This document shows, piece by piece, positions 1 to 57,376 of a DNA stretch of 64,000 nucleotides. Within the stretch, counting starts at the first letter, position 1. Every line of letters starts with the position of its first letter. This DNA is from Schmidtea nova (taxonomy: Eukaryota): the NCBI GenBank assembly GCA_044892505.1, contig CM097883.1:338520001-338584000 (forward strand), read 5' to 3'. The position numbers were made by a program, and so were the translations under genes. A model generated the notes under the pieces. That model searched no databases. It saw only the letters and a program-made list of their open reading frames with translations, and had not been told where the DNA came from.

Positions 1-7
1 CATAATG

Positions 8-149
8 ACTATAGATCAAAATTTTTTTTTATAAACAATAACACAATATTTCGGCACAGCCTTTATCAAGTGTGTATATATACACACTTGATAAAGGCTG
101 TGCCGAAATATTGTGTTATTGTTTATAAAAAAAAATTTTGATCTATAGT
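8..149. mobile_element. Penelope-like (PLE)-derived fold-back insertion, near-perfect 142-bp palindrome cut off by the window start and a gap
   Basis: 8-78 is the reverse complement of 79-149. Nearly identical to the core of the element at 24552-24786. Carries a hammerhead motif on each strand. Confidence 0.8.
84..116 (+). ncRNA. Minimal type I hammerhead ribozyme motif, U3-A8 core variant
   Basis: ACAC-TTGATAA-A-GGC-TGT-GCC-GAAA-TAT-T-GTGT: stem I ACAC/GTGT, stem II GGC/GCC, palindromic stem III ATAT, AUU cleavage triplet. Mirror copy at 41-73 on the minus strand. Confidence 0.65.
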
Positions 150-2775: not shown

Positions 2776-3074
2776 GAATAAAGGATTATTCACTCAAGTA
2801 ATTACAATTATATAATTATGCTCAATATTACACCTGCTTTCAATCATTAAGGTTTACCAGGTCGTTTTCCTGAAGTTGAATAATATTTTAGTAGTATTTT
2901 GTATTGCTTGTGTTACTTTATTCTACGTGACTAATGGAGGGTTAAGTAATTAAAGTAACAACTTTACCATTTTAAATTTAATATAAGATTTTTGAGAATG
3001 ATTTAAAATTTTATGTATATTTATCAGTAGAGGATAGTGAGCGCTCGGTACCACTTTTTTCACATTGCAACGGT

Positions 3075-3530
3075 TGCTCAGGTTAGTACACACACATCAA
3101 TATATAATCCCCGAAGAACACGTTGCCAGGGTAAATACACACACATATATATCAATTTATAGTCCTAGTGAAATATGTTGCTAGGGTAAACACACATTAA
3201 TGTATTTTCTTCGAGGAAACTGTTTCCAGGGTAAATACACACAATAGGGTGACTTCCCTGAGGAACTTGTTGCCTGGGTAAACATACATACATACACATC
3301 AATATATAACTCTTAATGATAGATGTAGTTAAGGTAACTACACACAGCAATATATAGTCCCCGAGGAAGATGATGTCAAGGAAAATACACACAACAATAT
3401 ATAATCCCCGAGGAACCTGTTGCCAGGGTAAACACATATCAATATATAATCATCGAGGAACCTTTTGCTAGAGTAGACACACACATTAAAGTTTTGTCTC
3501 CTTGGAACCTGTTGCTAAGGTAAATATGCC
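3075..3530. repeat. Subterminal degenerate tandem repeats of the Polinton (mirror at ~13200-13660)
   Basis: Recurrent motif GTTGCCAGGGTAAACACACA...CAATATATAATCCCCGAGGAAC. Confidence 0.8.
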
Positions 3531-6500
3531 ATTGTGTAACGGCAGTGACTACTGTTGGTAACATCAAAACATACAACACATTAATTATTACCCTTAACAC
3601 ACACGATAACATGTTTTTACTTAATCGAATGACGTTTATGTTTTAATGTACTGACTAACATTTCGAGTAGTTGTTTATTAATTGATAATTTTTTGATATA
3701 TTATATAATTTTTGTAAAATGATCTTTAGAAAATCGAATATGAGAACTTTGAAAACGGATGAAATGAATGCGAGAATTGTGACAATAGTCGAAATTTTAA
3801 AGACGATTCTACAGAGTGCAACTAGAAGAGCAGATGAAATTTAATAATAATATTTGTAAACAGAAACAATTATTTTTACATTAAATAAAAATATTGACAC
3901 AAAAAAATGAAAACCCTGAACAATAAAACCGTTTGAAATCTTGTCAATACATAAAAACTTTAAAAATAATTAAACATAATAAACTAAAGAAATATAAAAC
4001 TAAATATAATGAAACCAATTATTTTTTAACAAAGTTTTATTCAATACAAATCTGAATTGGATATTTTATTTGAATTGAGAGCTGGATCTGAAACTGGAAC
4101 ACCAACCTGATCTTTTGATTGGTCTATAAACGAGCCACATCTCTTATAATGTCCGTATGCAAGACTTTCATTTTATCAACCCAAAGTCTTTTATCATCAA
4201 GATTAGTCAAGGCAATTTTCGAATATTTATTAGTAAAGAGTTGATTCTTACTAACTATTCTCGATTGATCAACAGAAACTATTGAATTATTATTATAACA
4301 ATCCAGATACGACTGATGATTCAGTTTAGTATCCTTCAATGTTATACCCTTAGCCTTAATGCACTCTTCATCACCTAAAAGACTGTAACACTTTGGCCTA
4401 AGGAATACCCACTCATCATACTTGAATCCTTTATTCTCGTCTTTGAATTTACCAATGACGGAATCTAGGTTCCTACTGTATAATGGGTGATTCGGATCAT
4501 AATTAGAAGTGTCAAGTAAGTTATCTCTTATCATGGCCGGTAAAAGAATATCAAGCTTACAATTTCTAATCTCCAAGAAGAAAGAATCTAAATCACCAGC
4601 AACGATGTTAATTTCGCAGTTGAATTCATTACGATATTTTTGTAATTCTTCATACTGCAGCTGGTACATCCTAAGTTTTGATAAATCCAGTACAGTTTGA
4701 CCAATGTAGCTGGGTCTATCTAAACACACAGAGTCTTTATTAAGCAACACAGAAACTAGGTCATCGTCAATTCTATAAGTTTTTCTAAAGGTAGGTTTTG
4801 AAGTATATGTAATCAGTTTTGATGCTGAATTACATAGTCGTAAATTAAGTCGTTTTTTAAGATTTTCAACCGTTTTCCCAAAAAGACTATTATTCAAGAG
4901 TTTGTAATAGTTTTTATCTAAAGCCGTAGAAGAAGCTGCCCTAAGTTCAGTGTTTGTATATATGTATTTTTTAAAGATAGGTTTCTGATTGTACTGAACA
5001 GCCCGATGAACTCGTGTTATTTTAACACCCAAATAAACAAAAAGCTTGAGAAGTCTCCAATGAACAACATAGTTGAACTTTGGATAATGCATAAGCATTA
5101 ACTTCTGAACTTTTGAACCCGGAGCACACATTTTCTCTGATGCAACCGGAAAATCATTTAATTTATCGTGAATTTCTGAAGGGATTTCAAGATCCACTTC
5201 AAAAGTCACGCCATAAGTTAAAATAGCCAAATCAGCATCCATTAATTTAATTTATTTATTTAATTTATTTTGATCTGTGTTCCAACTAAATTCACCATAA
5301 GGTAATTTTTGACTTAAAGCCCACCCGTATAAATTATTTATGTCAATATATAAAAGTTCAATCGTTTCGGAGAATACTACATGGTGCTTGTTGACAAATG
5401 TCAATCCACCACGGATCCCCCCTTCGAAAAAATTATAAATCTCCATATCCTGGAGCAACTCAATAGGTTCTTCCAAGGTAATAAGCGCAGAAGCCCACGA
5501 CATACCTGGAATCCCCAAGAAATTCAAAGGCTCAAGTCTATTGTGAGCTATAGATTTAGCCCTAAACTGTTGAAAGAAATCAGCAAGAAGAAAAACATCC
5601 AGTTTAAGGTAGACCATCATATAGTCACAAAGAGTTTGACACTGGGATTCCCTCCAAATCACCAATGCCTTGTCATATTCATCTTGTTTAACACCTTTCC
5701 AGATTGGTGGCAACTCATAAGTGTTGTTAAGAATGTTAAGATGTTGCAAAATCATAAGGAAAAATACCCTTACAGTCAACAATAGTCCCGGCGAATTCAG
5801 ATCTAGTCAAAGGCAAACAAGTAAGAGTCTTAACAGCGTCATTTAAACTAAAATTTACAAACTGACAAGAATCGATGAATTTAATGGTTAAATCACTAAC
5901 CCTTGCAGACAATGTCAAGAACTTTTCACTAGTTGTAGGAATACAAGAAATTTTCCAAGTTGAAAAATTAACCAAACCATATTTAAGAATATGGTGCAAG
6001 TCATAGCCCTTTAAATTATGAAAAATAATGGGTAAAAACTTGTATAAACGACGGGATTGATTACAAGAATTACAAGCAGCTCCCAAAAATTCACCAGTGT
6101 AATGATCATGGTCTCTGACTGGTTGTACTAAAGTTTTCCTACAAAGATAACAAATAGTAGCAGAATCAAAAGATTGTTGATTAGCCGATGTCATAAAAAG
6201 AGGTTTCTTGTAATTAGTTCTATAAAAGGGATAAACAATAGTTTCAGAAATATTACTAATTTCAGTAAGAAAATTAGTAACGCAATCAAGACCTAAGAAA
6301 CTCTTGTAAATCTTTTCTCCAGTAAAGTTATTTACAAGTAAAAGACCGGCAGATATTGGGACATGTCTTTGAAAGTACTTATCATCAGCAGGTAAGATTG
6401 CCTCAAAATCGGCGTAAACAACAAAAGGTGGGGTAATTGTTTTGCCCCAATTACTAAATTGTAAATCTTTATTTCTAGGCAGAGTATAAAGAGTTTTGCC

Positions 6501-6809
6501 TAATTTATTTTTAGCACACAACTGTTGATGACAATCGAATGCTTCCTGTTTTCGAAATCCATTCAAGCATCGATGACACCATATACTTTGTACGCGAGCT
6601 ACAGAAAGAGATCTATTGTCGTAATTTAAAAGCTTATCAAGATCGGTGACTGCAATATAATGATATGCATCACAACTTTCCAACAAAATCAAGTTAATAG
6701 GAGTACCGTCAATAACTTTCGACCTATGAATTATATCGACACAAGGATGTTTAAAAACTTCAGGGTCTTCCAAGGTATCAAGAAGAGCATCTTCATCATA
6801 AGATAAAAC

Positions 6810-7038
6810 GGTGCTAGGACAAAATGTCAAGTGACATTTTGTCCGTGACATTTTGTCCGTGACATTTTGTCCGTGACATTTTGTCCGTGACATTTTGTCC
6901 GTGACATTTTGTCCGTGACATTTTGTCCGCGGACATTTTGTCCCGTGCCATTTTGTCCTCATGACATTTTGTCCGTGACATTTTGTCCGTGACATTTTGT
7001 CCGTGATATTTTGTCCGCGGACATTTTGTCCGGCCACC
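6810..7038. mobile_element. Short MULE-like non-autonomous element made of 14-bp GGACAAAATGTCAC repeats
   Basis: Starts GGTGCTAGG and ends CCGGCCACC. Same termini as 7204-7890 but in inverted orientation. Flanked by the reverse complement of GTTTTATC at 6802-6809. Confidence 0.75.
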
Positions 7039-7203
7039 CATTTTAGCTATTTTGAAATATGATGATGTAGATGGACACAGATATAGGACAAGTAATTATA
7101 ATCTTTCGGATCTTGTCTTTGACCCTTCAGAAATGCCCATGAGACTCTGTAATATTCCAAAATTTGAGGCTAAAAATCCCGGACTTGCTATTAATGTTTT
7201 ATC
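7039..7203 (+). pseudogene. polB: Inverted internal segment of the polB gene
   Basis: The plus strand reads ILAILKYDDVDGHRYRTSNY...KNPGLAINVLS. This bridges the minus-strand ends CFIYSI (7891) and VLSYDEDALL (6809). Confidence 0.85.
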
Positions 7204-7890
7204 GGTGGCCGGACAAAATGTCCGCGGACAAAATGTCATGAGGACAAAATGGCACGGGACAAAATGTCCGCGGACAAAATGTCACGGACAAAATGTCACG
7301 GACAAAATGTCACGGACAAAATGTCACGGACAAAATGTCATGAGGACAATCAAACTTCTTCGCCGTCAATTGGAACTGGGAACAACGGCTGGGAGGAAAA
7401 AGAAAACATACATCCGCGTCAACGAGGCATTGCATGTCATGGTGACCGACTACAACAACCGAGATCCAATCACATATTTAGGAGACATTGCACGTGTTTT
7501 AAACATTAATGTTGTTTGACTTCATTAGTTATTTTCATTGATAAAAGACTCGATTATTTATTTTTAAAAGCGTTTTTAAAATAAGCTAATAATGTTATAA
7601 GACTAAGCTATTTTATTAACTGAATATCTAACACTAAATTAATATAGGCTAGATATAATTATTATAATAAAGTTAGACTAAATTTGATAAATGCATTATT
7701 GAAATATTTTCATTGTTTTTCTGTCTTATATTTTTTTCCACAATTTTTGTCTGTGAGTCCGTGACATTTTGTCCTCATGACATTTTGTCCCGTGCCATTT
7801 TGTCCTCATGACATTTTGTCCGTGACATTTTGTCCGTGACATTTTGTCCGTGACATTTTGTCCGCGGACATTTTGTCCGCGGACATTTTG
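7204..7890 (+). mobile_element. MULE-like deletion derivative with tandem-repeat subterminal inverted repeats and a transposase C-terminal scrap
   Basis: Ends GGTGGCCGG and CCTAGCACC. 14-bp repeats in opposite orientation at each end. RKKKTYIRVNEALHVMVTDYNNRDPITYLGDIARVL resembles animal MULE transposase C-termini. 8-bp GTTTTATC at 7196-7203. Confidence 0.65.
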
Positions 7891-10515
7891 TCCTAGCACC
7901 TATATAATGCTATAAATAAAACACAAGTCGTCAGAATTTCTTACATTTACTGTACAATATTTTAACTGTAAGGATTGAGGGGTTTGAATGTGACTACGTC
8001 CACTTAATCGACTAATTTGAGCAAATTTAGTTACAACGAAATGGATTTCATTAACTTTGTTAATAACCCAATTACTTCCCTTTTCATTAATTAATGCTAT
8101 TTTTTCATTTAAAAGAGCAATACCCTCGTCAAAAAAGGTGTCACTCATAGGTCTCGCAGAATTTGAAATGATGAAGGATTGAATTTCCGCATCTTTTTCA
8201 AACTCTACGTCAATACAAAATTGTATTTTCACTGAACCCATCTCATTAATAACATTATTTAATTTATTAATTAAAATATCAGGTAAAATTAAAGTTTTCA
8301 AAACCAAGTGAGAAACATCCATTTTTACAACAGCGTGAGATTTTCTCAAATCAAATTTAACGTTAGGAAGAAGGGACCCACCATATTGAACATCTATGGT
8401 GTTAATGTCATTATTAAAACTTGTGTCAGAGTCGGAAAGAATTTTCATATCAGACATTACCTCGTCAACTATATTACTTAATTTTCTAACTTTTGTAGGT
8501 AGTGGATTATCGATAAGGATTTTTCTTTTATTATTAATAACATTGATATCACTATTATTTATTGTTAAATTAAAAAGAGATTTTTTCGAAGATCTAAATT
8601 TCCTTAAATGATCCTTATGGTCATCATAAAAGTTCAAAAAAGTCGAATTTTGGGTGGTCTTACATACGGGACATATAAAAAACGTGACTCCTTTATACGA
8701 ATATCGGTAATATTTTCCCATTAATTCAATACATTTATTATCATGAATTGATGATCGGCAAAATTTCGGAAAAAGTTTACCTGAAATATAAAAAATAATT
8801 AAAAATATGAACAATAAATGACAAGTATTTTAATATTAAAATTAATGTCATTATACAATAATTAATTAATAATTACAATAATAAAAATTTAATTAAATAA
8901 TTTAAATATTATGAAAAATAATATTAATTAATTTCAATTATTATATTCTTAATTATAATTGTTTTAATAATAAGTTTTACTCAAAGATGTGAAATTTAAA
9001 TTATTTACAAGTAATTTAAAAATATTAATTTAATATAATAATTTTCATATAGAACACATTATTTACTATGATAGAAAATAAATTATTTATTAATAATTAA
9101 TTTACAAAAACTTTAATTACTAAAACATTATTAAAAAAAAAATTAATAAATAAATAAATAAAACAATAAGTAATAATAATCAATATTCAAATTAATTTTA
9201 TATTCAAGTTAATTAATTAATTATTATAAAAAATTAGAATAATTATAATTAAAACTAGAATTGTTTTAATAATTAGTTATAAAATAAAAATTCAAATTCA
9301 AAAATTGTAAATAATTTTCAAAAATTAGTAAACACTACAAAACTAATTAAAAAAATAATTATTAATTTAAATAATATAGTTAATTATTTTAAGTTCTCAT
9401 TAGTATTTATTAACTTATCAATGATAAATATTACAAATCTCTTTGAATAATAAATAAAGATTATCCGTTAAATTACAAAATTGATAAAGAAAACTAATTA
9501 TTAAATAATTTAAATTAATATTTATATACAAAGGTAATTAATTATAAATTGCAATCATTAAATAAATCGATACTTACAGTTATTTTCTTCTCTTTTCATC
9601 GTTAAGTTTATTTTTCATTAAACTATCCATTCTTTCAGATGCTTCAACATTGTTACCAATAACGTTGTTCATATTGTTGTCGACATCGTTGTTGTAATCG
9701 TTGTTCTTGGTAATATCCATATTATTGTTGGTATTGTTCATTTTATCTAAAATAAGTTGATTATTTAAAAACTTTAAAACAAAAATAACTTACCAAATTT
9801 AGGTTGCAGTAAAAAGTGATTCTTAAATGAAAAACTATTGCTTATATACTAAATTCAAAAACTTTTAACCAATCAAATTCGAGCAAACATACACACACGT
9901 TTGTAAATACCACAATGTAATTTATGTTTACAATTAAATTTTGTAAAATTATTGAACACATAATTTATTGTTATAAATATATGTCATCAATTAATGTTAA
10001 ATATAAATTATTATTAAAATACAATTTAATAAATAAAGATTAATTTTAAAATTAAATTTTACTAATAAATTATAAAAATTATTACAAGTAGTTAAAATTA
10101 ATTATTAGATAAATTGTAAATTAATTGAAATAAAAATTAATTAACTAAAATAAAAATTAATTAATTAAAAGTAAACTAATTATTCACAAAGTTATTAGTT
10201 TTTACATAATGATTATTGTAGAGAATTAGAATATAAATTGTTACAGTGAAAACACAATTAAAGTATCAAATAAAATCAATTATTTACAACAAAACCCATA
10301 TGTAACACCATAATTTTTAAATTTCTAATCAAACAATTTATTGGAAAATTTATACATATAATGAAAACTCTAAAAAATTATTTTAAAATTACAAAAATAA
10401 CAATAAAAAATGTGTGCAACAAGAAAAATGACTAATTTTATATTTTAATTTAAGTCATTTTATAGGAAATTAAATTCTACATATACACTGTTAATGTGAA
10501 AACTCATTATCTTTA

Positions 10516-12693
10516 TTACTAATTTTCTTACTGAAATTAGTAATATTTCTGAAACTATTGTTTATCCCTTTTATAGAACTAATTACAAGAAACCTCTTTT
10601 TATGACATCGGCTAATCAACAATCTTTTGATTCTGCTACTATTTGTTATCTTTGTAGGAAAACTTTAGTACAACCAGTCAGAGACCATGATCATTACACT
10701 GGTGAATTTTTGGGAGCTGCTTGTAATTCTTGTAATCAATCCCGTCGTTTATACAAGTTTTTACCCATTATTTTTCATAATTTAAAGGGCTATGACTTGC
10801 ACCATATTCTTAAATATGGTTTGGTTAATTTTTCAACTTGGAAAATTTCTTGTATTCCTACAACTAGTGAAAAGTTCTTGACATTGTCTGCAAGGGTTAG
10901 TGATTTAACCATTAAATTCATCGATTCTTGTCAGTTTGTAAATTCTAGTTTAAATGACGCTGTTAAGACTCTTACTTGTTTGCCTTTGACTAGATCTGAA
11001 TTCGCCGGGACTATTGTTGACTGTAAGGGTATTTTTCCTTATGATTTTGCAACATCTTTAGAAATTCTTAACAACACTTATGAGTTGCCACCAATCTGGA
11101 AAGGTGTTAAACAAGATGAATATGACAAGGCATTGGTGATTTGGAGGGAATCCCAGTGTCAAACTCTTTGTGACTATATGATGGTCTACCTTAAACTGGA
11201 TGTTTTTCTTCTTGCTGATTTCTTTCAACAGTTTAGGGCTAAATCTATAGCTCACAATAGACTTGAGCCTTTGAATTTCTTGGGGATTCCAGGTATGTCG
11301 TGGGCTTCTGCGCTTATTACCTTGGAAGAACCTATTGAGTTGCTCCAGGATATGGAGATTTATATATTTTTAGAAGGGGGGATCCGTGGTGGATTGACAT
11401 TTGTCAACAAGCATCACGTAGTATCCTCCGAAACGATTGAACTTTTATATATTGACATAAATAATTTATACGGGTGGGCTTTAAGTCAAAAATTACCTTA
11501 TGGTGAATTTAGTTGGAACACAGATCAAAATAAATTAAATAAATAAATTAAATTAATGGATGCTGATTTGGCTATTTTGACTTATGGCGTGACTTTTGAA
11601 GTGGATCTTGAAATACCTTCAGAAATTCACGAAAAATTAAATGATTTTCCGGTTGCATCAGAGAAAATGTGTGCTCCGGGTTCAAAAGTTCAGACGTTAA
11701 TGCTTACGCATTATCCAAAGTTCAACTATGTTGTTCATTGGAGACTTCTCAAGCTTTTTGTTTATTTGGGTGTTAAAATAACACGAGTTCATCGGGCTGT
11801 TCAGTACAATCAGAAACCTATCTTTAAAAAATACATAGATACAAACACTGAACTTAGGGCAGCTTCTTCTACGGCTTTAGATAAAAACTATTACAAACTC
11901 TTGAATAATAGTCTTTATGGGAAAACGGTTGAAAATCTTAAAAAACGACTTAATTTACGACTATGTAATTCAGCATCAAAACTGATTACATATACTTCAA
12001 AACCTACCTTTAGAAAAACTTATAGAATTGACGATGACCTAGTTTCTGTGTTGCTTAATAAAGACTCTGTGTGTTTAGATAGACCCAGCTACATTGGTCA
12101 AACTGTACTGGATTTATCAAAACTTAGGATGTACCAGCTGCAGTATGAAGAATTACAAAAATATCGTAATGAATTCAACTGCGAAATTAACATCGTTGCT
12201 GGTGATTTAGATTCTTTCTTCTTGGAGATTAGAAATTGTAAGCTTGATATTCTTTTACCGGCCATGATAAGAGATAACTTACTTGACACTTCTAATTATG
12301 ATCCGAATCACCCATTATACAGTAGGAACTTAGATTCCGTCATTGGTAAATTCAAAGACGAGAATAAAGGATTCAAGTATGATGAGTGGGAATTCCTTAG
12401 GCCAAAGTGTTACAGTCTTTTAGGTGGATTGTTATAATAATAATTCAATAGTTTCTGTTGATCAATCGAGAATAGTTAGTAAGAATCATCGACTCTATAC
12501 TAATAAATATTTGAAAATTGCCTTGACTAATCTTGATGATAAAAGACTTTGGGTTGATAAAAATGAAAGTCTTGCATACGGACATTATAAGAGATGTGGC
12601 TCGTTTATAGACCAATCAAAAGATCAGGTTGGTGTTCCAGTTTCAGATCCAGCTCTCAATTCAAATAAAATATCCAATTCAGATTTGTATTGA
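10516..12693 (+). pseudogene. polB: 5'-truncated second copy of polB (right arm)
   Basis: ORFs 10602-11546, 11556-12437 and 12424-12693. Shares the in-frame TAA at 11544-11546. Has a private ~64-bp deletion near 12425 and an intact C-terminal SLAYGHYK. Confidence 0.9.
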
Positions 12694-13743
12694 ATAAAAC
12701 TTTGTTAAAAATAATTGGTTTCATTATATTTAGTTTTATATTTCTTTAGTTTATTATGTTTAATTATTTTTAAAGTTTTTATGTATTGACAAGATTTCAA
12801 ACGGTTTTATTGTTCAGGGTTTTCATTTTTTTGTGTCAATATTTTTATTTAATGTAAAAATAATTGTTTCTGTTTACAAATATTATTATTAAATTTCATC
12901 TGCTCTTGTAGTTGCACTCTGTAGAATCGTCTTTAAAATTTCGACTATTGTCACAATTCTCGCATTCATTTCATCCGTTTTCAAAGTTCTCATATTCGAT
13001 TTTCTAAAGATCATTTTACAAAAATTATATAATATATCAAAAAATTATCAATTAATAAACAACTACTCGAAATGTTAGTCAGTACATTAAAACATAAACG
13101 TCATTCGATTAAGTAAAAACATGTTATCGTGTGTGTTAAGGGTAATAGTTAATGTGTTGTATGTTTTGATGTTACCAACAGTAGTCACTGCCGTTACACA
13201 ATGGCATATTTACCTTAGCAACAGGTTCCAAGGAGACAATACTTTAATGTGTGTGTCTACTCTAGCAAAAGGTTCCTCGATGATTATATATTGATATGTG
13301 TTTACCCTGGCAACAGGTTCCTCGGGGATTATATATTGTTGTGTGTATTTTCCTTGACATCATCTTCCTCGGGGACTATATATTGCTGTGTGTAGTTACC
13401 TTAACTACATCTATCATTAAGAGTTATATATTGATGTGTATGTATGTATGTTTATCCAGGCAACAAGTTCCTCAGGGAAGTCACCCTATTGTGTGTATTT
13501 ACCCTGGAAACAGTTTCCTCGAAGAAAATACATTAATGTGTGTTTACCCTAGCAACATATTTCACTAGGACTATAAATTGATATATATGTGTGTGTATTT
13601 ACCCTGGCAACGTGTTCTTCGGGGATTATATATTGATGTGTGTGTACTAACCTGAGCAACCGTTGCAATGTGAAAAAAGTGGTACCGAGCGCTCACTATC
13701 CCCTACTTTTATCGATTTATTTCATATTTAAAATAAACTGTTT

Positions 13744-22825: not shown

Positions 22826-23342
22826 AATTTTATATTTTTTTAAAGTGTAATTTTTTAAAAAATAAAATGAAAAATTCTCGAAACGAAAAAATCTAAGGTG
22901 AATAAGAGATAACAATGATATTATTACTAGCTGGTGTTGAGTTTTTGTGTTCGATGTTATTAACTGAATTTTGGTCACTAATATATAAATAAAATAATAT
23001 AACTGTTTAAAAAACTTTATTTACTTTACCCTTTACCACCAAAGTTCTCTCGAGTTTATAAATTTGTATCAATTAAATATCAATGTCCGCTTGCAAATGC
23101 CTAAGCTGGGCTTGGTTTTGTACGCTTTATTTTGATTTTTCTAGTTTATTTCAAACTTAGAAATTTAGGCGCAAAACCCTTTTTTGGGTGCTTAGAGTGA
23201 AAAATCAGTCAGTATTTATACCTTTTTGTGTTGTGTTTTTTACAGAGACAAAGGTATTTATCCTGTCAATAGTTTCTTTTTTGTAAACAATTTTATTTTT
23301 AACTTTACATCATCGCCATCATTTTACTCTAATAATTAGAGA

Positions 23343-23915
23343 GTGGTATTTGTCATAAAAAAACTATGTAGTCGTGGATTACCACTTCGAGGACACTGTG
23401 AAAAATTTTATAACAATCTTAATGGAAATTTTATAATGACATTAGAAATAGTCGCAGAATATAATCCCTTTCTGAAAGATCATATACTGAAGTATGGAAA
23501 CTGTGGTTCTGGAAACACATCATACATGTCAAAAACAATACGTGATGAATTTATTCGAATAATGGGAGCAGAAGTTAGAAACAAAATAATCCATGATATC
23601 AAAAACGCAAAATATTTTTCATTAATTGTTGATTCGACTCCCGATATTTCTCATGCTGATCAATTATCAGTAATAATTCGACATGTAGATATTTCTGATG
23701 GCAAAACAGTGGAACGTTTTTTGATTTTTTTCGACAATGCAGGCCATAAAGCACACGAAATGTTTGAAATGATTTTGAGATTTTTTGATGAATTCAAATT
23801 AAATTTAACCGATTGCAGAGGACAACCCTATGACAATGCCAATAATATGTCGGGAATCAACAATGGCTACAATTATTTGGTATTTACATTCACGAAATAT
23901 TTTCCAATATTTTAG
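23343..23915 (+). pseudogene. hAT transposase fragment (ZMYM1/DUF4371-like)
   Basis: GLPLRGH...GNF...YMSKTIRDEFI...YFSLIVDSTPDISHADQLSVIIRHVD...CRGQPYDNANNMSG. Confidence 0.85.
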
Positions 23916-24551
23916 TCCGTGTTAAAATACTTTTAAATTTTGTTTTAAAAAATTTTAAAAAATATAAATTATTTATTTAAATTTTAACAATTTTAACTAA
24001 TAACTGCAATTTAACTTTTTATTAATTTTTAAATATTAAAAATGTACGTGTTCACAGCATTTTGCACATTAATTTACGGACCAAGCGATTTATCAACACG
24101 CTTCACAGTTAACACACTCAAAGGATACACCGGTTTTCATCGTTTAAAAGTAACTATGATACACGTAGGTGTGTACATAGGCTTGCCAGGTGTACGTGAA
24201 TTAGTGAAAACGTACCTAAAGGTAAGTTTAATTACTGATTATATTTTAAGTCGCACACATTTTTAAAAAATTGTTGTAATTTAAATCAAATAGTATAAAA
24301 ATACGCGAAAAAGAAAACAAAAATCAACCATTTACACATTAAAAATATGGTTTCGTTTATATTATGCTGCGTTTTTGTTTAAAGGGGAAAATTTACCATT
24401 TGTTTAAATTTTTAACAAGTGCCAGCGATCAGTGTGCTGTTATGTTTCATTATTCAAATATTTGTTCAAATTCAAATATTTGATTATAAAATACAATTCT
24501 GTGAATTTTGTGAATTTGTGTGTTTTTGGAATTTGTGTTATAAAATTAAAT

Positions 24552-24786
24552 TATTATTATCAATGATTCTCATAATGACTATAGATCAAATTTTTTTTTT
24601 ATAAACAATAACACAATATTTCGGCACAGCCTTTATCAAGTGTGTATTTCTGAATACACACTTGATAAAGGCTGTGCCGAAATATTGTGTTATTGTTTAT
24701 AAAAAAAAAATTTGATCTATAGTCATTATGAGAATTATTGATAATAATAATAAAAAAAGATCAAAGGTGAAAAAAGATAATTATGA
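24552..24786 (+). mobile_element. PLE-derived fold-back insertion with a 3' tail and 13-bp TSD
   Basis: ~200-bp palindrome plus unpaired tail AAAAAAGATCAAAGGTGAAAAAAGATAATTATGA. Direct repeat TATAAAATTAAAT at 24539-24551 and 24787-24799. Confidence 0.8.
24658..24690 (+). ncRNA. Minimal type I hammerhead motif, U3-A8 variant (mirror at 24611-24643, minus strand)
   Basis: Identical to the motif at 84-116. Confidence 0.65.
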
Positions 24787-26936
24787 TATAAAATTAAATA
24801 TTTAAATTTTTTGATTTGTTTTGTTATAATATAATTTTTGTCCAGTTCAACTTTAATAAGAATACAAAAACGCTGCTTCATTAAAGTTGAACTGGACAAA
24901 AATTATATTATAACAAAACAAATCAAAAAATTTAAATATTTAATTTTATAACACAAATTCCAAAAAGTACAAAGCTCTAAATGTTTTTAAATTGGTAGAA
25001 GTTCCTGTTTTTGAAGATTTATTAAATGTACTGAAGGTATTTCCTATAAAAAATATTGACGTAGATGGTTTATTTGGAGAGTACATAAGATTTAAAGAAA
25101 TTATACCAGATCCAGATATACAGAAATTAACATATGAAGAAAAATGGTTAAAAATATTTAAAACATTTAATTCTCCAAATATGCTTAAAATTGTAGAATT
25201 TATTTTTGCGTTACCTCATTCCAGCGCGATGAGTGAACGCATGTTTAGTTTAATGTTTTATGCTTGGAGATCAGATAGAAGTCGTCTCCTTATAAAAATA
25301 TAGAAGCTGAAATCCTCGTGAAGCATAATTTTAATATGAATTGCAAAGAGTTTTACAAATATGTGATTCAGAAAGATAAAATATTAAAAAAACTTAAAGG
25401 AAATGAAAAATATACCTAATCAAATTATAATTAAATGAAGTCCTTGTTATTTGTTTTTTAAATTGTGATACTATCATATAATTAATTTTAATATTTTATT
25501 GAAGTGATATAATTAATTTTTTGTTAAGGCAGAATTAAATACCTTGTGATTTATTTTTTAAATTATTTTATTTTTTAAAATAATTTAATAATTTTATATA
25601 TAACATATTTACTGATAATTAAAATAATAAAAAAAATTACATAACATGTATCTTTAATTGTTTTCTTTTTTATGCTGATCAATTTTTGTATGTACGTTTT
25701 TTTCGAAATTTTTATCTGGCAAGCCTATGTGTACATCTACTTGTTACTCACAGTTACTTTGTTAATATTTTGTGTTACATTTTTATTTAGCCATTTATTT
25801 TTCATTTAGCCATTTTTTTAAAATGGCTATCAGGTAATTTTATTTATCTAGATATCTTTTAATGCTTCTATTTTGATCTTACAATGATATAAGATCACTA
25901 TAGAAGCTTTGAAAGTTTTTCTATATTCTTCAATATTATTTTATTTTATATTTATTAGCTTTTTATGAAAATATGATTTTTTATGAAATTTTTTGGAAGT
26001 ATTTTACAATAAACGTAAGTAAAAATATTTTTTAACAATAGTTTATAAATGAAATTCCATTATATTTGTTCTTCACTTAATTTTGTTTATTTTTAAATAC
26101 TTTCTAGGAAATCATGATTTTTTAACATTTTTTGGGGAATTATTTTCATTTAACGTAAGTTAAAAATCATTTTTAATTAATAATTATTATAATTATTTCT
26201 ATTTTTGAAATAGTTTTTTGGATATTCCAAGAAATAATTTAATTAAGCTTAATTTTTTATTTCAAGAATTGCCAAATTTTATCGTCCTGTATTATATGAG
26301 ACTTCAAAATGATCCAAATTGCAGAGTAAATATGCTTAATTGTCTATAATTTTAAAATAATTAGACGGAATTATTTTTTGGTTACTGAAAAAAGGAAAAT
26401 TTTGTCAAATAATTTTTGGAAATATATGTAATTTTATATTAAAATAAAACTTACGATGTTATTTATCCATTTCCTAGACAACTCCCCTAGAAAATATTCC
26501 AAATATTTACCTAAAAATCATATTTTAAAAATAAATAAATTTATTATAGGACTTTTAAACGCGTAAAAAAGTGCCGGTGAAAGTTTGCATGCAATTTTCA
26601 CTGTGTGTTGTGCTTGTGTGCATAATTTATTTTTTCTCATAGATTGTTTACCACATACTAAAACTTTTAAACGACATAAAATCAACTGTTAACATCAACG
26701 TAAGTTATCATTTTCTATTGGTTATTTATTTTTTATATTATAGATAGTTTTATCGAACGAAAACAAGTGTAATCAAAATTTTTGTTAGACAATCGATCAA
26801 ATTTTTGATTTATATTTTTATGTTAAGAATTTTATGTAATATCAATTCCAAATATTAATTGATCAATATTCAAGAACCACATTATAAGAACAAAATCGAT
26901 AAAATAATTATATATCGAGTTTGTTGCGAATATTAC

Positions 26937-29171: not shown

Positions 29172-30159
29172 CAAATATATATATATTTTGCACAATATAT
29201 TTCGAGAACTTCATCAGGTGCTACCAATGTTACATCCAAATATAAATCAAATAAATCGATTTTTTCGAAAAAATTAGTAATAATTTTTAAAATAAAATAT
29301 ATATTTTAAATTTTATTATAGTCAAAAAATTTAAATCGAAATAAAATTTTTAAATTTAAATAAATTAATCTTAAAAATATAATATTCTTTTATTTTTATA
29401 CAAAAAAATATTTTTTTTAAGAATATATTATAAATATTTTCATATTTATAAACAACAGAATGATTGAAAACGAAATCCATAATCCCCAATTGAAAATGCT
29501 CTAAAACTCGACTACAGAAAAGACGGTCAGTCTTGTCCAAAGTATGTGGCATTACGCCCATGACATTTGAAAAATTAAACGAGTATAGAACACAAATCAA
29601 AAGAAGAAAATAAACATCATCAACAACCACATCAGTTAATTTACTTAAACCGCAAAAAATGAGGCAACACACGGACTCAAAACTCTCACACTCACATATT
29701 CACAAACAACGATACGACTGAAAACAACGCTAAATCCTAATAATTGACTTCGCTCTGAAACTCGAATACAGAGAAGACTGCACTCGAGTTTTAGAACATT
29801 TTCAATTGGGGATTATGGATTTCGTTTTCAATCATTCTGTTGTTTATAAATATGAAAATATTTATAATATATTCCTAAAAAAAATATTTTTTTGTATAAA
29901 AATAAAAGAATATTATATTTTTAAGATTAATTTATTTAAATTAAAAACTTTTAAATTCGATATAAATTTTTTGACTATAATAAAATTTAAAATATATATT
30001 TTATTTTAAAAATTATTACTAATTTGTTCGAAAAAATCGATTTATTTGATTTATATTTGGATGTAACATTGGTAGCACCTGATGATGAGTATTAAGTTCT
30101 CGAAATATATTGTGCAAAATATATATTTGGATTGGCGTTTGTTGTTAATTATATTAATG
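29172..30159. mobile_element. Penelope-like element remnant: degenerate GIY-YIG 3' end plus pLTR, with an inverted partial copy
   Basis: The minus strand near 29500-29600 reads C..NATYFG/KTDR.FCSRVLEH across a frameshift. 29172-29510 is inverted against 29783-30130. Hammerhead in the pLTR; flanked by gaps. Confidence 0.75.
30075..30115 (+). ncRNA. Minimal type I hammerhead ribozyme with canonical CUGAUGA/GAAA core
   Basis: GCAC-CTGATGA-T-GAG-TATTAAGTT-CTC-GAAA-TATAT-T-GTGC: stem I GCAC/GTGC, stem II GAG/CTC, palindromic stem III. Confidence 0.8.
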
Positions 30160-30628: not shown

Positions 30629-31924
30629 CGTGGTTGGTTCATTAAGTACCTGCAGTCGGTATCAAAAACAAAAGATATTGACAAAACACATTTATTTTTA
30701 GAATCTACGACATGTCTAGGCTTATTTTTCAATGTAAGAGCCATTGTTCTCAATACACTTTTTCCAACGAACAAGAAGTTCTAAAAACCCGTTATTGTAG
30801 AACGATTTTGGTTTTTCGTCGAAGAATTTTGTTACTTCCTCCTTTAGTGAATCACTAGAAACAAAGAATTTACCAGCCAAGTGTTTCTTCAAATGTCTAA
30901 ATAAATAGAAATCACTTGGAGCCAGATCAGGACTATAAGCAGGATGTTCCAATGTTGAAAAGCCACATCGAACAATTTTCTCCGACACAAGTTTTGATGC
31001 ATGAATTGGAGCATTGTCGTGATGCAGCCACAAATTTGTGTTTTTCTTTTTTCGTCGAAGCTTCCGAGTTTGTTCAATGAGATTAGAATAATAAACACTG
31101 TTAATTTTAACTTGTTTATCTGCGAAATCAATATTGATTATTCCATCACTATCCCAAAAAATCGAGAGCATCAAATTTCGACGGTGAATGGTTCCAGATT
31201 TCAGCTTCTTTGTCGGCTTTTCATCTAGAAACTTCCATTCTGCTGAAGATCTTTTACTTTCTGGAATATAAAGACTTAGTGGTGTCTCGTCTTCCGTTAT
31301 AATGTTTTTCAAAAATGACTCACCATGTTCCTCGAACAGTGCAAAATTGTGTTCACAAATCATTAGCCTTTTTTCACACAATTCAGCGGATAAAAAATAA
31401 GGAACAAACCTGCTGCACAACTTCCGCACACCCATCTCTTTTATCGTTTCATGACACTTACCGACACTGACATTGACCTCCTTCGCCAAATTTTTTACTG
31501 TAATCCTTCGTTCGTCTTTAATTAACGATTCAATCTGATTTTTCTTTCTGTCTTCATCAATTTCAATCGGTCTTCCTTGCTTTGATTCATCAATAACTGA
31601 CATTCTTCCACTTTTGAATTCACTAATCCAATAATAAATAGTTCTATCACATGGACAGTCTTCTTTATACGTCTCTTGGAGCATTGCTAAAATCTCTAAT
31701 CTTGAAGCCTCGCGCATTACAAAAAACTGAATCACCGACCGATATTCAATGCTTAAAATTGCCATATTTTGAATGATTAAATATTTGCTCTAAACAAATA
31801 TTGGTTAAATAAAACAAAATGAAGATTTCTAACCTTTTATAAATTCTCTACAACGGAAACATAAATTTGTTATAATATCTCTTATTTTTGATATCGAGTG
31901 CAAGTACTTCGTGAACCAACCACG
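30629..31924 (-). mobile_element. Full-length mariner transposon (1296 bp)
   Basis: TA TSDs and ~35-bp imperfect TIRs starting CGTGGTTGGTTCA. Confidence 0.95.
30722..31765 (-). CDS. Mariner D,D34D transposase, uninterrupted 347 aa
   Basis: ITEDET, HHDNAPIH and YSPDLAPSDFYLF motifs; FVPYFL in place of WVPHEL. Confidence 0.95.
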   Translation of the reverse strand: MAILSIEYRSVIQFFVMREASRLEILAMLQETYKEDCPCDRTIYYWISEFKSGRMSVIDESKQGRPIEIDEDRKKNQIESLIKDERRITVKNLAKEVNVSVGKCHETIKEMGVRKLCSRFVPYFLSAELCEKRLMICEHNFALFEEHGESFLKNIITEDETPLSLYIPESKRSSAEWKFLDEKPTKKLKSGTIHRRNLMLSIFWDSDGIINIDFADKQVKINSVYYSNLIEQTRKLRRKKKNTNLWLHHDNAPIHASKLVSEKIVRCGFSTLEHPAYSPDLAPSDFYLFRHLKKHLAGKFFVSSDSLKEEVTKFFDEKPKSFYNNGFLELLVRWKKCIENNGSYIEK

Positions 31925-33958: not shown

Positions 33959-35021
33959 TAGTGATTACAAAACCGGTAAACGGTTAACCGGTTTTACCGG
34001 CCAATTTGATTACCGAAATTACCGGTAAATTTAAAAAGAAATTACCGGTTCTTTCGGTAATTTTTTAAAAATTATTTCAATATTATCCTTGAAAAATAAC
34101 TGAACAATATTTTAAATTCATATCCGTTATCCAAATTCACCAATTAAAATTGTATGTCCTGAAAATTGTGTTAATTTTTAAATATTATTTTAAATATTTG
34201 TTTAAGTATTTCTTAATTCTGTTAATTTAAATGCTTGATGAATTGTCTGCACAAAGTAGTACTCTAAGCAGAGAATTAAAATATGAATTAATTTTACGAG
34301 TACAAGAGAGTAGCACAAGTTCTTCCAATGTTATCCAGTTTTTACATAATCCGCTTGAATTTAGGAATATTCATCTAGACTCTAGTGGTGTTGATCCAAC
34401 GACTTCAAATACATTATCAGATGACTGAGTCATTATGACTGATTCATTGGGTTCATTATTCTATTCACTGTCATTTATAACGTTTAAGAGTTCTATAAAA
34501 GACACAATACTTTATGTAATTTCAGGTTTATTAAATTTAATTTAATTTAATAAACCTGAAATTACAAAAAATATTGTGTCTTTTATAGAACTCTTAAACG
34601 TTATAAATGACAGTGAATAGAATAATAAATCCAATGAATCAGTCATAATGACTCAGTCATCTGATGATCGTGTATCTGAAGTCGTTGGATCAACACCACT
34701 ATCCATGAAAGGCAAGTTGCAATTGGTTATGAAACAAAAAATTGACTTAAAATTAAATAAAATTCCCCGCGCTCCAATAACAAAAAACGCCACAACCTTA
34801 ACAAAACTGGTTTAAAAGAAATCGCTGTGTTTGAAGAGGAACAAAGCCGTGGTAAATATTTAACGCTGGCGTTCAACCATCTTTCATCAATTAAACCAAC
34901 GAGTGTTGAATCCGAGCGAGCTTTTTCATCAGCGGGGGTAATATGTACAAAAATAAGATCCAGACTTAGAGATACCACAATAGATATGATCTGTTTGCTC
35001 TGTGCATATTTCAACGCATAA
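33959..35021 (+). pseudogene. hAT element remnant (left end with ACCGG subterminal repeats; transposase C-terminal fragments)
   Basis: TAGTGATTACAAAACCGG start. Peptides QFLHNP and IKPTSVESERAFSSAG...RSRLRDTTIDMIC. Right end not identified. Confidence 0.75.
34383..34701. repeat. ~150-bp-arm imperfect fold-back inversion inside the hAT coding remnant
   Basis: TAGTGGTGTTGATCCAACGACTTC...GAAGTCGTTGGATCAACACCACTA, centred near 34542. Confidence 0.85.
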
Positions 35022-42284: not shown

Positions 42285-42461
42285 CTAATAATTTCCATAA
42301 AGACTAGATCACTTGTGTACTTATATTATTATTAAAATTATAATTAGAAATTAATATGTGTACTTATTTAAAGAAATTTTGATCTATAATCTTACCATTA
42401 TGGGAATTATTGATACTAATATTAAAAAAAGATCAAAGGTGAAACAAAAAGATAATTATGA
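42285..42461 (+). mobile_element. Degenerate member of the PLE-derived fold-back family, no hammerhead
   Basis: Right arm GATCTATAATCTTACCATTATGGGAATTATTGATA plus the same tail; degenerate left arm. Confidence 0.65.
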
Positions 42462-46754: not shown

Positions 46755-46919
46755 TCATAATTATCTTTTTGTTACACTTTGATCTTTTTTAATATTAATC
46801 TCAATAATTCCCATAATGCTAAGACTATAGATCAAAATTTTTTTGAAAATTTTTTTTGAAAAACTTGTTTGAAAAGATTTTGATCTATAGTCTTACCATT
46901 ATGGGAATTATTGATATTA
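46755..46919 (-). mobile_element. Member of the PLE-derived fold-back family, no hammerhead, 11-bp TSD
   Basis: Tail on the left, ~45-bp inverted arms, and direct repeat ATATATAATTG at 46744-46754 and 46920-46930. Confidence 0.75.
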
Positions 46920-49716: not shown

Positions 49717-52141
49717 CCCTTTCGCCCCTATTGGGACAATACGTCCCAGAAACTTTCATCATGATCCTACTGGGATATTTTCAAAGCAATTTGCGGTGTT
49801 AAAGTTTATTTTTAGTGTTTCATTGTTCTATTTGAATTTAAAATATTTACCGTTAGGATTTTTCTTATATTTCTGTCAATTTTAATATAACTCGTGGACG
49901 GTCTCTTTTAGTGCTGAAGTAAATTTACAAATTTTAAGTGTTTTCATAAAAATAAAAAAAAAATAACATAATATTTTATTTTCGGAGCATAAAAATAACC
50001 GAATTACATTATAAAAAGTAAGTATTAATAAAATTTGTAGAAGATATTCGTAGTTTTTACTTTTGGGATTATATATCCCAACAGTATTTTATGGATTTTT
50101 TAATTGGGATATATGGTCCCAATAGTATTTTACATTAATGATTTTCTATTTTTTTAAAAAAAAATAGAATGTCTAACAGAAAAAAACTACTGGATCACGA
50201 AATAGAAGCACTTATGAATGCTAGTAGCGATGATGATGATCCAGATTTTGCAGTTTTTTTTGATACAGATTCAGAATATTTACCGAGTGATGTTGAAGAA
50301 GCAAATGAAAATATGGATGGAATAGTAAATCAATCTAACATTGATGAAGAAGATATTCAAATTGAACAAAACATCATACAACATGATATTTGGGTTGCTA
50401 CTGCTGAAAATTTTCGTCCTCGTATGGAAATACCACCAGAAATTCGGCCCAGTATAATTGCTGAACTAGATAGGTCATCAAGTGAGTTAGAAACTTTATT
50501 GAAAATATTTCCTAGAAGTTTATTTATTCATATTGCCGATTGCACAAACAAACGGATTGATATATTAGAAGCTACAACCAAAAAAACATTTACTAAAACT
50601 AATTACTCTGAAATAATGATAGTTGTTGGTGTTACGCTTATCATGTCCTATAATCGCTTGCCAAATCTGAGTTGTTACTGGTCGCTAAAAAAAGTAAAGG
50701 AAATGAACTCATCAAATTAGCCATATCGAGAGACAGGTACGCATTTCTAATGAGCAAGATGTACTTCTCCGACCCAAAAAAACCAGATGATGCCACAAAA
50801 ACATATTATATTGATGACTTGGTGGCATGCTTGAAAAATAATTTTATAAATGCCAGAGAAGATAGTACTTTCCAAAGCATTGATGAAAGTATGGTGAAAT
50901 TCAAAGGAAGATCCAGCCTCAAACAATACCTTCCACTAAAACCTATAAAGAGAGGTATTAAAATTTGGGAACGTTGCGACTCACTAACCGGATATATATA
51001 CGACTTCAATATTTATTGCGGAAAGGAAACTTCTCCACAAGATGGTACATTAGGTGAGCGAGTGGTCAATAAGTTGTTGAAATCAGTAGTCAAGAAAAAT
51101 GTATGTTTTTGTTTTGATCGGTTTTTTACATCTGCCAAATTAATAAATGAAATTGAATATCCGGCTGTTGGCACATGCATGAAAAACAGAAAAAATATCC
51201 CGAAGTCTGTTAAAAAATTGAAGAGAGGTGAAAGCGTTGTGTTGAATAATCAATTTGGTACTTCTTGCATAGTATGGCAAGACACAAAAGAAGTACTCTG
51301 TTTGAGTAATTGTCATGGTAATCAAATTTCAACAACTCAACGTAAAGCCAAGACAGGTGAAAAACTAGATATTACTTGCCCGGAAGCTATAAAATTTTAT
51401 GGAAAATACATGGGTGGTGTAGATCTCTCCGATCAAATGGTATCTACTTATGATATAAACAGAAAATCTAATAAGTGGTGGAAGAAGGTATTTTATAAAT
51501 TGCTGCAATCGGCTTGCGTTAATTCTTGGATAATTTTCAAAGAAATACGTCATTAGGATAAGTTACCTTACTTTGAATTCCTTTTGGAAGTGGCTGAAGA
51601 TTTGATTGAAATCGGTCGAAAGAATGCACCCATAAAAAGGATGCGGAGTTATGGTCGTCCTTCAAAATCGGTGCAAAGTTTGGTAAATATTGGTGGTCAT
51701 CTTCCTGTTGAATGTAAAGAAAGACGTAGATGTGTAAGATGCGCCAATCAAAAAACAGGGAAACCAAAGGAGAAAAGAACTCGTTTTGTATGCAAAAGCT
51801 GTAATATTGCTCTATGTTTTGAATGTTTTACGCCATACCATACATAAATATAAAAACAAATGTATTTAATATGTAATTTATATATAAAATACAAAATAAA
51901 ACTATATTTTTTTAATCTTTTTCAAAAATTACTTTTTATATTTTTATATAAATTACCGCAACATTTATGATTTTGAATGGTCCATAAAAGCCTATTGGGA
52001 CTTATTATCCCAGGACTTTCTAGGATATTCAGAAGCGCCACGATTACAAAAATGAGAATATTTCATATTTAGGTCAATATTAACAAGTTCCAATATATAA
52101 ATTTAGCATAGTGTCATTAGCGGAAAGTCGGTGCGAAAGGG
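49717..52141 (+). mobile_element. Full-length piggyBac (PGBD4-like), 2425 bp
   Basis: TTAA TSDs and TIR CCCTTTCGC/GCGAAAGGG. Confidence 0.95.
50169..51847 (+). pseudogene. piggyBac transposase with one frameshift (A-run near 50690) and one in-frame TAG (51554-51556)
   Basis: SIDESMVKFKGR, CFDRFFTS, YMGGVDLSDQM, and C-terminal Cys-rich CVRC...CKSCNIALCFEC..YH. Confidence 0.9.
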
Positions 52142-56085: not shown

Positions 56086-57376
56086 TGAAAGAGGTCAAGG
56101 GTTTATTATAGAAATTATTAGATTAAAGAGTCATATTAAAAACTATCCGGATAGCAGAAATAGTAATAGCGATTAAGGAAAATAAAGTCGTCAACGATTA
56201 GAGTTTCATAGAGTTAAAAGGTGCGCACCAGAGGATTAAAAGGATACGAGAGACAAGCTGATGATGTAGTCTAAATATTGACTGAAAAAATCAGCATACA
56301 TAGTTAAAGTAAAATAACAAAGGATAGAACGAAGTAAAAAACGAACAAGTAAAAGGGGTATAAACAAGTAAAATAAAAGTGTTATAAACAATTAAAACAA
56401 TAGCTGTACGATCAAGTAAAAGTTGTAGGAACGAGTAGATAATAATTGTGTGAAATAAAACCTAAGACAAATAAACTAAGAATCATAGACTAGAGAAAAT
56501 AGTGAAGACGACGAGAGTAAAACAACTAAATTTGAGAAATTCGAGATATCATAAGAAAGGACACAAAGACCACAAGAAGCAAGGATATAGAATAATTAAA
56601 AAGAATTACATCGATTTAGAGAATTAAGTGTCAAGAAACATAATTACCAAAATAATAAAAGCAACAAAACACTGAAAAATTCAAAGTGATGAAGTTAATA
56701 AAATAATTGTCTAAGATGAATTACGACGAGGTAAAGTACAATTAATATTGCAATACAGATAGAATAGACTAAAATCAAGGAAGAAAGATAACCGAGCCCT
56801 AAAATACCCATAAATATTCGAAAAAACTAAAGAGCAGAATTTATTTATTAATAATTATTTGAAGGAACTGGGTGAGCGGTGAAAGCCACCCAAATGGTTA
56901 AAAGTGTATTTTATTTTGTAGATTTCAATCAAACAACGAACCAAGCAACCAATTCAAGTCAACAACAACCAACAAGTCAAACGGACAGAAAGCTACAGAT
57001 ACAGAACAAGTAAAACATAATTCAAGAGGACAAACCCAAGCCAAAAAGAAGCCAACAGTAAATTGAATAACCGTATAAAAATCGGAATCCAAATCAGGAA
57101 AGAAATTCGCCATCATTGAGAATCATTACAGAGAAAAATTCAAACCCAGTTCCAAATTTAACCAATTATTAGACAAATCCGTAGTGGAAAAAATTAGAAG
57201 AGCACGATCAGTATCAATAAAAAGAACCTGTCAAATAACAGACTATATATACATCCAGAATACAAACAGTGAAACAAGCATCAAAGAAAACAGAGAAATT
57301 TCAATAAACACCCAATTCTATCAAAAGACAGCAATAACAAGCATCGAAGATAACTCTAGGAAACGCCAAGCACAAA

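What the first reader, a model, noticed from the sequence alone, without database searches (positions are those of the whole stretch)
24552..24786. Family of tiny fold-back retro-insertions carrying back-to-back hammerheads with a compensatory U3-A8 core
Seen: four related elements (8-149, 24552-24786, 42285-42461, 46755-46919). They share conserved outer inverted arms, a variable centre and, where the ends are visible, an unpaired ~35-40-nt tail. Two have TSDs of different length (13 and 11 bp). Two carry ACAC-TTGATAA-A-GGC-TGT-GCC-GAAA-TATT-GTGT on both strands. Established: variable-length TSDs indicate target-primed reverse transcription. Penelope-like elements show inverted pLTR fragments, a short 3' tail and minimal type I hammerheads with a palindromic stem III. 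Hammerhead positions 3 and 8 base-pair, so C3U plus G8A is a compensatory change that CUGANGA pattern searches miss. Inference: a non-autonomous PLE-dependent family whose ribozyme sits inside a perfect hairpin, so either strand gives one ribozyme plus its own antisense.
Basis: partly seen in the sequence, partly recalled or inferred. Interest (0 to 1): 0.75.

Follow-up and report, generated by a model that had tools for sequence, protein, structure and literature searches.

The report
Penelope fold-backs record ribozyme cutting
This hairpin-shaped insertion is two short end pieces of a very abundant Penelope-like jumping gene joined head to head, likely a misfire rather than a mobile element of its own, and across the genome about 2% of such pieces begin right at the ribozyme's predicted cutting site, which likely shows that this ribozyme cuts its RNA in living cells.

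Summary
The element is not a separate non-autonomous family. Both arms are the 3' end (pLTR, minimal U3-A8 hammerhead, start of ORF) of an autonomous Penelope-like element (PLE) found in this genome: an intact 869-codon RT + GIY-YIG frame between hammerheads 2,767 nt apart. The core 21-mer has 43,926 exact matches. Inverted 5'-truncated copies, a one-sided tail, TSDs and the U3-A8 core are already described for PLEs, and this scan noted such fold-backs on other DNA.

What this genome adds: (1) 42 of 42 short fold-backs carry exactly one tail, and in 10 neither arm contains the other, pointing to two cDNAs started at the two known RT start sites; (2) arm lengths are coupled (1 mixed pair of 76, 13.5 expected); (3) short arms stop at a hard edge about 11 nt upstream of the hammerhead, likely the RNA 5' end; (4) a second sharp edge lies at the predicted cleavage site (+25/+26 about 3-6 times +22, +24, +27), and 28 of 31 partner arms also lack the ribozyme core. 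Point 4 is a likely genomic footprint of in vivo cleavage, not previously found in my searches; it is inferred, not assayed.

The parts
24539..24551 (+). Left target-site duplication (13 nt)
   Evidence: present once in the empty arm of the host inverted repeat
24552..24651 (-). Inverted arm: PLE 3' end from -12 to about +89, no tail (second RT start site, inferred)
24611..24643 (-). Minimal type I hammerhead, U3-A8 core, minus-strand copy
24653..24786 (+). Direct arm: PLE 3' end from -9 to about +125, 98.5% identical to the pLTR of an intact element
24658..24690 (+). Minimal type I hammerhead: stem I 4 bp, U3-A8 core, bulged A, stem II 3 bp, palindromic AUAU stem III, H17 = U at 24686 (predicted cut after 24686)
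24716..24787 (+). First 24 codons of the PLE reading frame (first Met at 24728)
   Evidence: tblastn 24 of 24 identical
24752..24786 (+). PLE 'tail' (about 35 nt, on one arm only)
24787..24799 (+). Right target-site duplication
24880..24965 (-). Intact arm of the older host inverted repeat = empty-site control (end approximate)
1..149 (.). Second young fold-back (arms both start at -8); its tail lies left of the window
42285..42461 (+). Decayed copy of an older subfamily, ribozyme core absent
46755..46919 (-). Older-subfamily fold-back, arms start about +41, 12-nt TSD, tail on the left

Best explanation
The element is a head-to-head pair of short 3'-end pieces of an autonomous Penelope-like retrotransposon present in this genome, likely made in one abortive insertion in which both nicked target strands primed reverse transcription on the same RNA. 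Shown: identity with the pLTR of intact RT + GIY-YIG copies, one tail per fold-back, a 12-13-nt TSD in AT-rich or microsatellite targets, and two sharp 5' edges (about -11 and +25/+26). Inferred: the element's endonuclease makes staggered nicks about 12 nt apart; one strand primes at the outer start site (about +125) and the other at the inner one (about +90); when the start hairpin lies near the RNA's 5' end both cDNAs run off at about -11 (likely the transcript start), or at +25 when the hammerhead has already cut; the two identical-sense cDNA ends are then trimmed and joined through 1-3-nt microhomologies or short templated inserts, giving a palindrome. Each copy is likely built anew and dead on arrival; its ribozyme would be masked by the hairpin.
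For: Intact 869-codon frame between hammerheads 2,767 nt apart, Pfam RVT_1 in 5 of 5 frames and GIY-YIG in 1 of 5; two copies differ at 1 of 2,610 nt. Counts: core 43,926, 21-mer at -33..-13 10,281, ORF 21-mer past the tail 1,030; at least 4,448 back-to-back pairs with a 0-15-nt gap. Of 139 arms, 101 start at -14..+5, none at -52..-15, 29 are longer, 9 start further 3'; 68 end at +84..92 and 62 at +125..132; the evenly spaced 800-kb sample gives 39 of 49 at -14..+5. One tail in 42 of 42 and 31 of 31 fold-backs. The tail-less arm is 5'-longer in 10 of 42. Mixed long/short pairs 1 of 76, 13.5 expected, p 6e-6. Contigs of 4 runs (1 study) step up in depth at -13..-6, with unrelated loose ends before -12..-7. 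Apparent starts after removing mutated intact ribozymes and correcting for letter bias: +22 82, +24 125, +25 536, +26 407, +27 107. Partner arms of +25 copies start at +21 or later in 28 of 31. In vitro, a PLE protein nicks and extends both strands, prefers ATT and starts RT at two sites that bound the tail (PMC11167929).
Against: No RNA data: the transcript start at about -11 and cleavage at +25 are read from DNA ends only. A TAG at -13..-11 could be a splice acceptor, as the D. virilis intron ends at helix I, though no shared upstream exon was seen. Junction fractions come from by-eye sorting of the first 100 listed matches per search; only five positions were counted (+23 and +28 were not). 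+26 is nearly as high as +25. Only 1 of 139 arms in the first sample started at +25/+26: the class is about 2% of arms. Simple junctions such as -8/-8 recur at unrelated loci, which microhomology explains but a master copy would too. Samples hold some tandem or segmental duplicates (2 of the 42), and long pairs were undercounted at locus edges. PAc work found cleavage unnecessary for insertion and no reads at the cut site. The predicted dimer energy (-6.4) was far weaker than an alternative cofold (-17.7).
Confidence: 0.72

Rival explanations
1. A self-propagating non-autonomous fold-back family: the hairpin is transcribed and re-inserted as a unit by the PLE protein.
For: Thousands of similar-sized copies; some simple junctions recur; cis ends (tail, start sites) are retained.
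Against: Junctions vary widely and complex ones were unique apart from tandem duplicates; short and long arms share the same sequence types; continuous size range up to 9.6 kb; the outer end of the inverted arm sits at the second RT start site rather than being randomly truncated.
Confidence: 0.07
2. Snap-back self-priming: one cDNA (or an antisense template) folds back on itself and is copied, as proposed for palindromic PLE junctions by Arkhipova et al. 2013.
For: Explains coupled arm lengths and perfect palindromic centres; the tail arm is 5'-longer or equal in 32 of 42; proposed in PMC3846280.
Against: A copy of one cDNA must be contained in it; in 10 of 42, and in many +25 copies, one arm has the tail and the other the longer 5' end. 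It does not explain why the second arm stops at about +90.
Confidence: 0.12
3. The +25/+26 edge is an RT stall at the folded ribozyme core, not cleavage (applies to that sub-claim only).
For: Stem III and the core lie just upstream of +25; PLE hammerheads cleave poorly in vitro.
Against: A stochastic stall would leave the partner arm free to read through, yet 28 of 31 partners also stop at +21 or later; the step is sharp between +24 and +25.
Confidence: 0.22
4. Short forms arise after insertion by central deletion of longer, unstable palindromes.
For: Would shorten both arms together; long fold-backs exist.
Against: Sharp edges at fixed positions; solo copies without a palindrome start at the same edges (5 solo +25 copies in microsatellites); no arms start at -52..-15.
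Confidence: 0.06
5. A DNA MITE or foldback transposon.
For: Long terminal inverted repeats.
Against: Asymmetric ends, 12-13-nt TSD, arms identical to a retroelement pLTR.
Confidence: 0.01

Closest known systems
Canonical endonuclease-positive Penelope-like insertion units (Arkhipova et al. 2013 PMC3846280; Craig et al. 2021 PMC8557442; passages read)
   Same: pLTR, adjacent inverted 5'-truncated copy, 30-40-nt tail at one end, TSD, partial tandems, palindromic junctions
   Different: Here most units are reduced to two ~100-135-nt arms with a fixed 5' edge; the one-tail rule, arm coupling and cleavage-site class are counted, which I did not see in the passages read
[quoted passage not shown]
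   Same: Short stem I, bulge between 9 and 10.1, G10.1-C11.1, palindromic 15.2-16.2, U3-A8 variant, pairs on opposite strands
   Different: Stem II is only 3 bp with a 3-nt loop; about 44,000 exact copies; genomic ends pile up at the cut site
PAc (Anolis Poseidon) in vitro mechanism (Frangieh et al. 2024 PMC11167929; parts 1-2 of 4 read)
   Same: Two RT start sites bounding the tail, both strands nicked and extended, AT-rich targets, hammerhead at the pLTR-ORF junction
   Different: They saw no link of start site to strand and no reads at the cut site; here each fold-back uses each site once and a cut-site class exists
Hydra / Nematis-type PLE clades (Craig et al. 2021)
   Same: DKT motif, CxCX5C linker, unit under 3 kb, (TA)n-type targets
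   Different: A CxxC..H..H motif is present in the endonuclease, which Hydra lacks; no tree was built
Non-LTR retrozymes (bioRxiv 10.64898/2026.07.22.740005; part 1 of 5 read)
   Same: Small, non-coding, type I hammerhead, PLE-derived
   Different: Retrozymes are head-to-tail tandem repeats; these are dispersed head-to-head pairs

Membership tests
EN+ Penelope-like element | Single ORF with RT | tested here: met
   RVT_1 above cut-off in 5 of 5 frames; 425 library proteins at E<=1e-30
EN+ Penelope-like element | C-terminal GIY-YIG endonuclease | tested here: met
   PF01541 at cut-off in 1 of 5 near-identical frames; NIVY..YIG motif in the translation
EN+ Penelope-like element | pLTRs from partial tandems, hammerhead in the pLTR | tested here: met
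EN+ Penelope-like element | Inverted 5'-truncated copy and 30-40-nt tail on one end | tested here: met
   42 of 42 and 31 of 31
EN+ Penelope-like element | Target-site duplication | tested here: met
   13 nt with empty-site control; 11-13 nt in 7 of 8 non-repetitive flanks
EN+ Penelope-like element | Retained intron / promoter in pLTR | not testable with these tools
   no RNA run listed
Hydra clade of PLEs | DKT motif and CxCX5C linker | tested here: met
   read from translation against definitions
Hydra clade of PLEs | CCHH motif absent from EN | tested here: not met
   CxxC and two later His present
Hydra clade of PLEs | Phylogenetic placement | not tested
   no named reference set at hand
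Minimal type I hammerhead | Core, 3-8 pair, bulge, G10.1-C11.1, palindromic stem III, NUH site | tested here: met
   H17 is U or C among copies
Minimal type I hammerhead | Two-sided covariation in stems among copies | tested here: inconclusive
   none within the family; a second family in the genome has C3-G8 and a G-C outer pair in stem I
Minimal type I hammerhead | Self-cleavage | not testable with these tools
   only the genomic end peak at +25/+26
Non-autonomous SINE/retrozyme-like family | Fixed master structure or head-to-tail units with own diagnostic sequence | tested here: not met
MITE / foldback DNA transposon | Symmetric termini, short fixed TSD, no retroelement origin | tested here: not met

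The most novel reading that the evidence does not exclude
The genome holds a fossil record of the Penelope insertion reaction: every fold-back is a twin-primed event in which a dimeric RT copies one RNA from both tail-bounding start sites, and roughly 900 arms beginning at the hammerhead cut site are the first genomic evidence that a minimal U3-A8 PLE hammerhead cleaves in vivo and that cleaved RNA is still inserted.
Probability: 0.55. Interest if true: 0.72.

Novelty: new member of a known kind. Interest (0 to 1): 0.5.

Why it matters
How PLEs build their inverted repeats and one-sided tail, and whether their minimal hammerheads ever cut in cells, are open questions: cleavage is weak in vitro and no cut-site reads were found for PAc. 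A young family with about 44,000 copies turns both into countable statistics. It gives a recipe usable in any PLE-rich genome (histogram of arm starts around the ribozyme; tails per fold-back; arm containment) and predicts the RNA 5' end. The element type itself is ordinary.

Tried and rejected
DNA similarity search of the genome returned nothing because common words are skipped; patterns were used instead. Rfam gave only sub-threshold hairpin (miRNA) matches and no hammerhead family. PDB sequence search: 0 hits. Sequencing runs: no RNA holder listed; contigs showed no intron-type joint among the rows shown, which is no evidence either way. Apparent 'two-tail' fold-backs in BLAST tables were over-extension into TAA repeats and vanished on base-level alignment. 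A spliced or trans-spliced leader upstream of -10 was looked for and not seen (loose-end agreement 0.39-0.55; junctions). A first local look found no peak at the cut site; it appeared only in genome-wide counts. Lunse et al. 2017 is not held: only its title was seen, and it may contain activity data on U3-A8 variants. Supplements of the papers were not read and may bear on clade placement and on known junction classes. Look-ups of earlier scan notes by place and by protein returned nothing.

Full report
Numbering. Positions are relative to U3 of the hammerhead (0 = window 24662 on +). H17 is +24, so a cleavage product would start at +25.

1. Observation. The 99-nt inverted repeat, the 35-nt unpaired tail and the 13-nt TSD are as described. 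The insertion interrupts one arm of an older inverted repeat; the other arm reads through with a single copy of the 13-mer, so the TSD and boundaries have an internal control. The hammerhead string is on both strands here and at 1-149. The copies at 42285 and 46755 are 84-85% related, belong to an older subfamily and lack the core.

2. What it belongs to. The core 21-mer has 43,926 exact matches in the 1.25-Gb genome, control 0. [quoted passage not shown] The window's direct arm is 98.5% identical to this element's 3' end from -9 to +126 and encodes the first 24 residues of the frame. The protein has DKT and CxCX5C motifs like the Hydra clade but keeps a CCHH-type motif; I built no tree.

3. 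Anatomy across copies. I examined loci around the first listed core matches and 80 evenly spaced 10-kb stretches. Of 139 arms, 68 end at +84..92 and 62 at +125..132; 101 start at -14..+5, none at -52..-15, 29 run further upstream and 9 start further 3'. Genome counts agree: 43,926 at the core, 10,281 at -33..-13, 1,030 in the ORF past the tail. At least 4,448 back-to-back pairs have a 0-15-nt gap, with varied junctions. All 42 short fold-backs aligned have exactly one tail (2 are tandem duplicates); the tail arm is 5'-longer in 23, equal in 9, shorter in 10. Junctions show 1-3-nt microhomology or short inserts copied from the neighbouring arm. The same head-to-head layout occurs at 0.4 to 9.6 kb. 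Long and short arms rarely mix: 68 short-short, 7 long-long, 1 mixed, 13.5 expected (long pairs undercounted, duplicates present). TSDs are 11-13 nt in 7 of 8 non-repetitive flanks (mismatched controls reach 11 or more in 3 of 56); 31 of 39 insertions are in simple AT repeats. Contigs from four coded runs of one study show a depth step at -13..-6 and unrelated loose ends before -12..-7.

4. The cut-site class. I counted arms whose match begins exactly at a given base: +22 129, +24 260, +25 514, +26 1,127, +27 114 with 18 by chance. Sorting the first 100 listed of each by eye, 83, 45, 78, 46 and 86 were true junctions rather than mutated intact ribozymes. Corrected for flank letter bias: 82, 125, 536, 407, 107. 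I fetched the first 40 junction-type, non-tandem +25 places: 31 are fold-backs, all with one tail; partners start at +21 or later in 28 (+25 or later in 23); the other 3 join through the stem I microhomology; 9 scored solo, 5 of them in microsatellites. When one arm reaches into the ribozyme the partner does too in 41 of 42. Both arms therefore behave as if copied from an RNA that began at +25. Against: +26 is nearly as high, +23 and +28 were not counted, the class is only about 2% of arms, and a shared stall at the folded core is not excluded.

5. Mechanism. Shown: items 2-4. From the literature: a PLE protein nicks and extends both strands, prefers ATT, is predicted to dimerise, and starts RT at two internal sites that bound the tail (PMC11167929). 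Inferred: staggered nicks about 12 nt apart each prime one cDNA, one from each start site, on one RNA; near the RNA 5' end both run off at about -11 (or +25 after cleavage); the ends are trimmed and joined by microhomology-mediated repair. Snap-back copying of one cDNA (PMC3846280) cannot give pairs in which neither arm contains the other. The -11 edge is most simply the transcript start; a splice acceptor there is possible, but no shared upstream exon was seen. In a read-through RNA the hairpin (-145 kcal/mol) removes the ribozyme stems (probability about 0, against 0.3-0.8 in a single arm), so the fold-back is likely inert as a ribozyme.

6. Comparison with what is known. U3-A8 cores, the bulged base, palindromic stem III and opposite-strand pairs are in PMC4209133. 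Inverted pLTR, one-sided tail and TSD are in PMC3846280 and PMC8557442. No C3-G8 form exists in this family. Four earlier notes of this scan describe such fold-backs in other genomes. I found no paper on cut-site-truncated PLE copies or on tail-per-fold-back counts in searches; Lunse et al. 2017 could not be read and subscription papers are not searched.

7. Verdict. Real, and a new member of a known kind. The value lies in the population signal: likely twin priming from one RNA and a likely footprint of ribozyme cleavage in vivo, both directly testable. Interest 0.5.

Noticed in passing
window 29172-30159, hammerhead at 30075-30120 (+): A second fold-back family with a canonical C3-G8 minimal hammerhead (stem I GCAC/GTGC, ATATAT stem III); the mirrored copy near 29190-29225 has a deletion in stem II. 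Related hammerheads occur in L012, L106, L143.
   Followed up: partly
window 3026-13707: Giant inverted repeat (about 3.2-kb arms, 99%) carrying protein-primed DNA polymerase B and endonuclease VII domains on both arms, Polinton/Maverick-like by recalled domain pattern.
   Followed up: partly
window 34413-34668: Unrelated 128-nt-arm palindrome without spacer, flanked by inverted sequence; no hammerhead found by my scan.
   Followed up: no
window 24523-24965: Older inverted-repeat element (22-nt loop at 24858-24879) that hosts the insertion; family unknown.
   Followed up: partly
window 30722-31789, 50142-51556, 57338-60142, 23340-23915: Mariner-type transposase, piggyBac-type DDE_Tnp_1_7, retrotransposon gag with zinc knuckles, DUF4371 frames.
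   Followed up: no
L025, L046, L098: A third hammerhead type with 6-bp stem I, no bulge and ACTAGT stem III, canonical retrozyme-like.
   Followed up: no
L031+L032 (G000:C1:1119184-1128900): A 9.6-kb fold-back made of two partial tandems, each with an intact ORF.
   Followed up: partly
L081, L145: Fold-back copies amplified inside larger tandem repeats (8 and 10 copies in 10 kb), which inflates genome counts.
   Followed up: no
runs X2, X4 on L032/L036: A contig joint from the tail end back to -8, i.e. a head-to-tail repeat of the short unit, retrozyme-like.
   Followed up: no
runs X1, X3; L006, L079, L080, L105: Sister subfamilies keep the same hammerhead with H17 = C while the downstream sequence differs.
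   Followed up: partly
L032 1964-1971: TATA-like TATTTA about 29 nt upstream of the -10/-11 edge; weak in an AT-rich genome.
   Followed up: no
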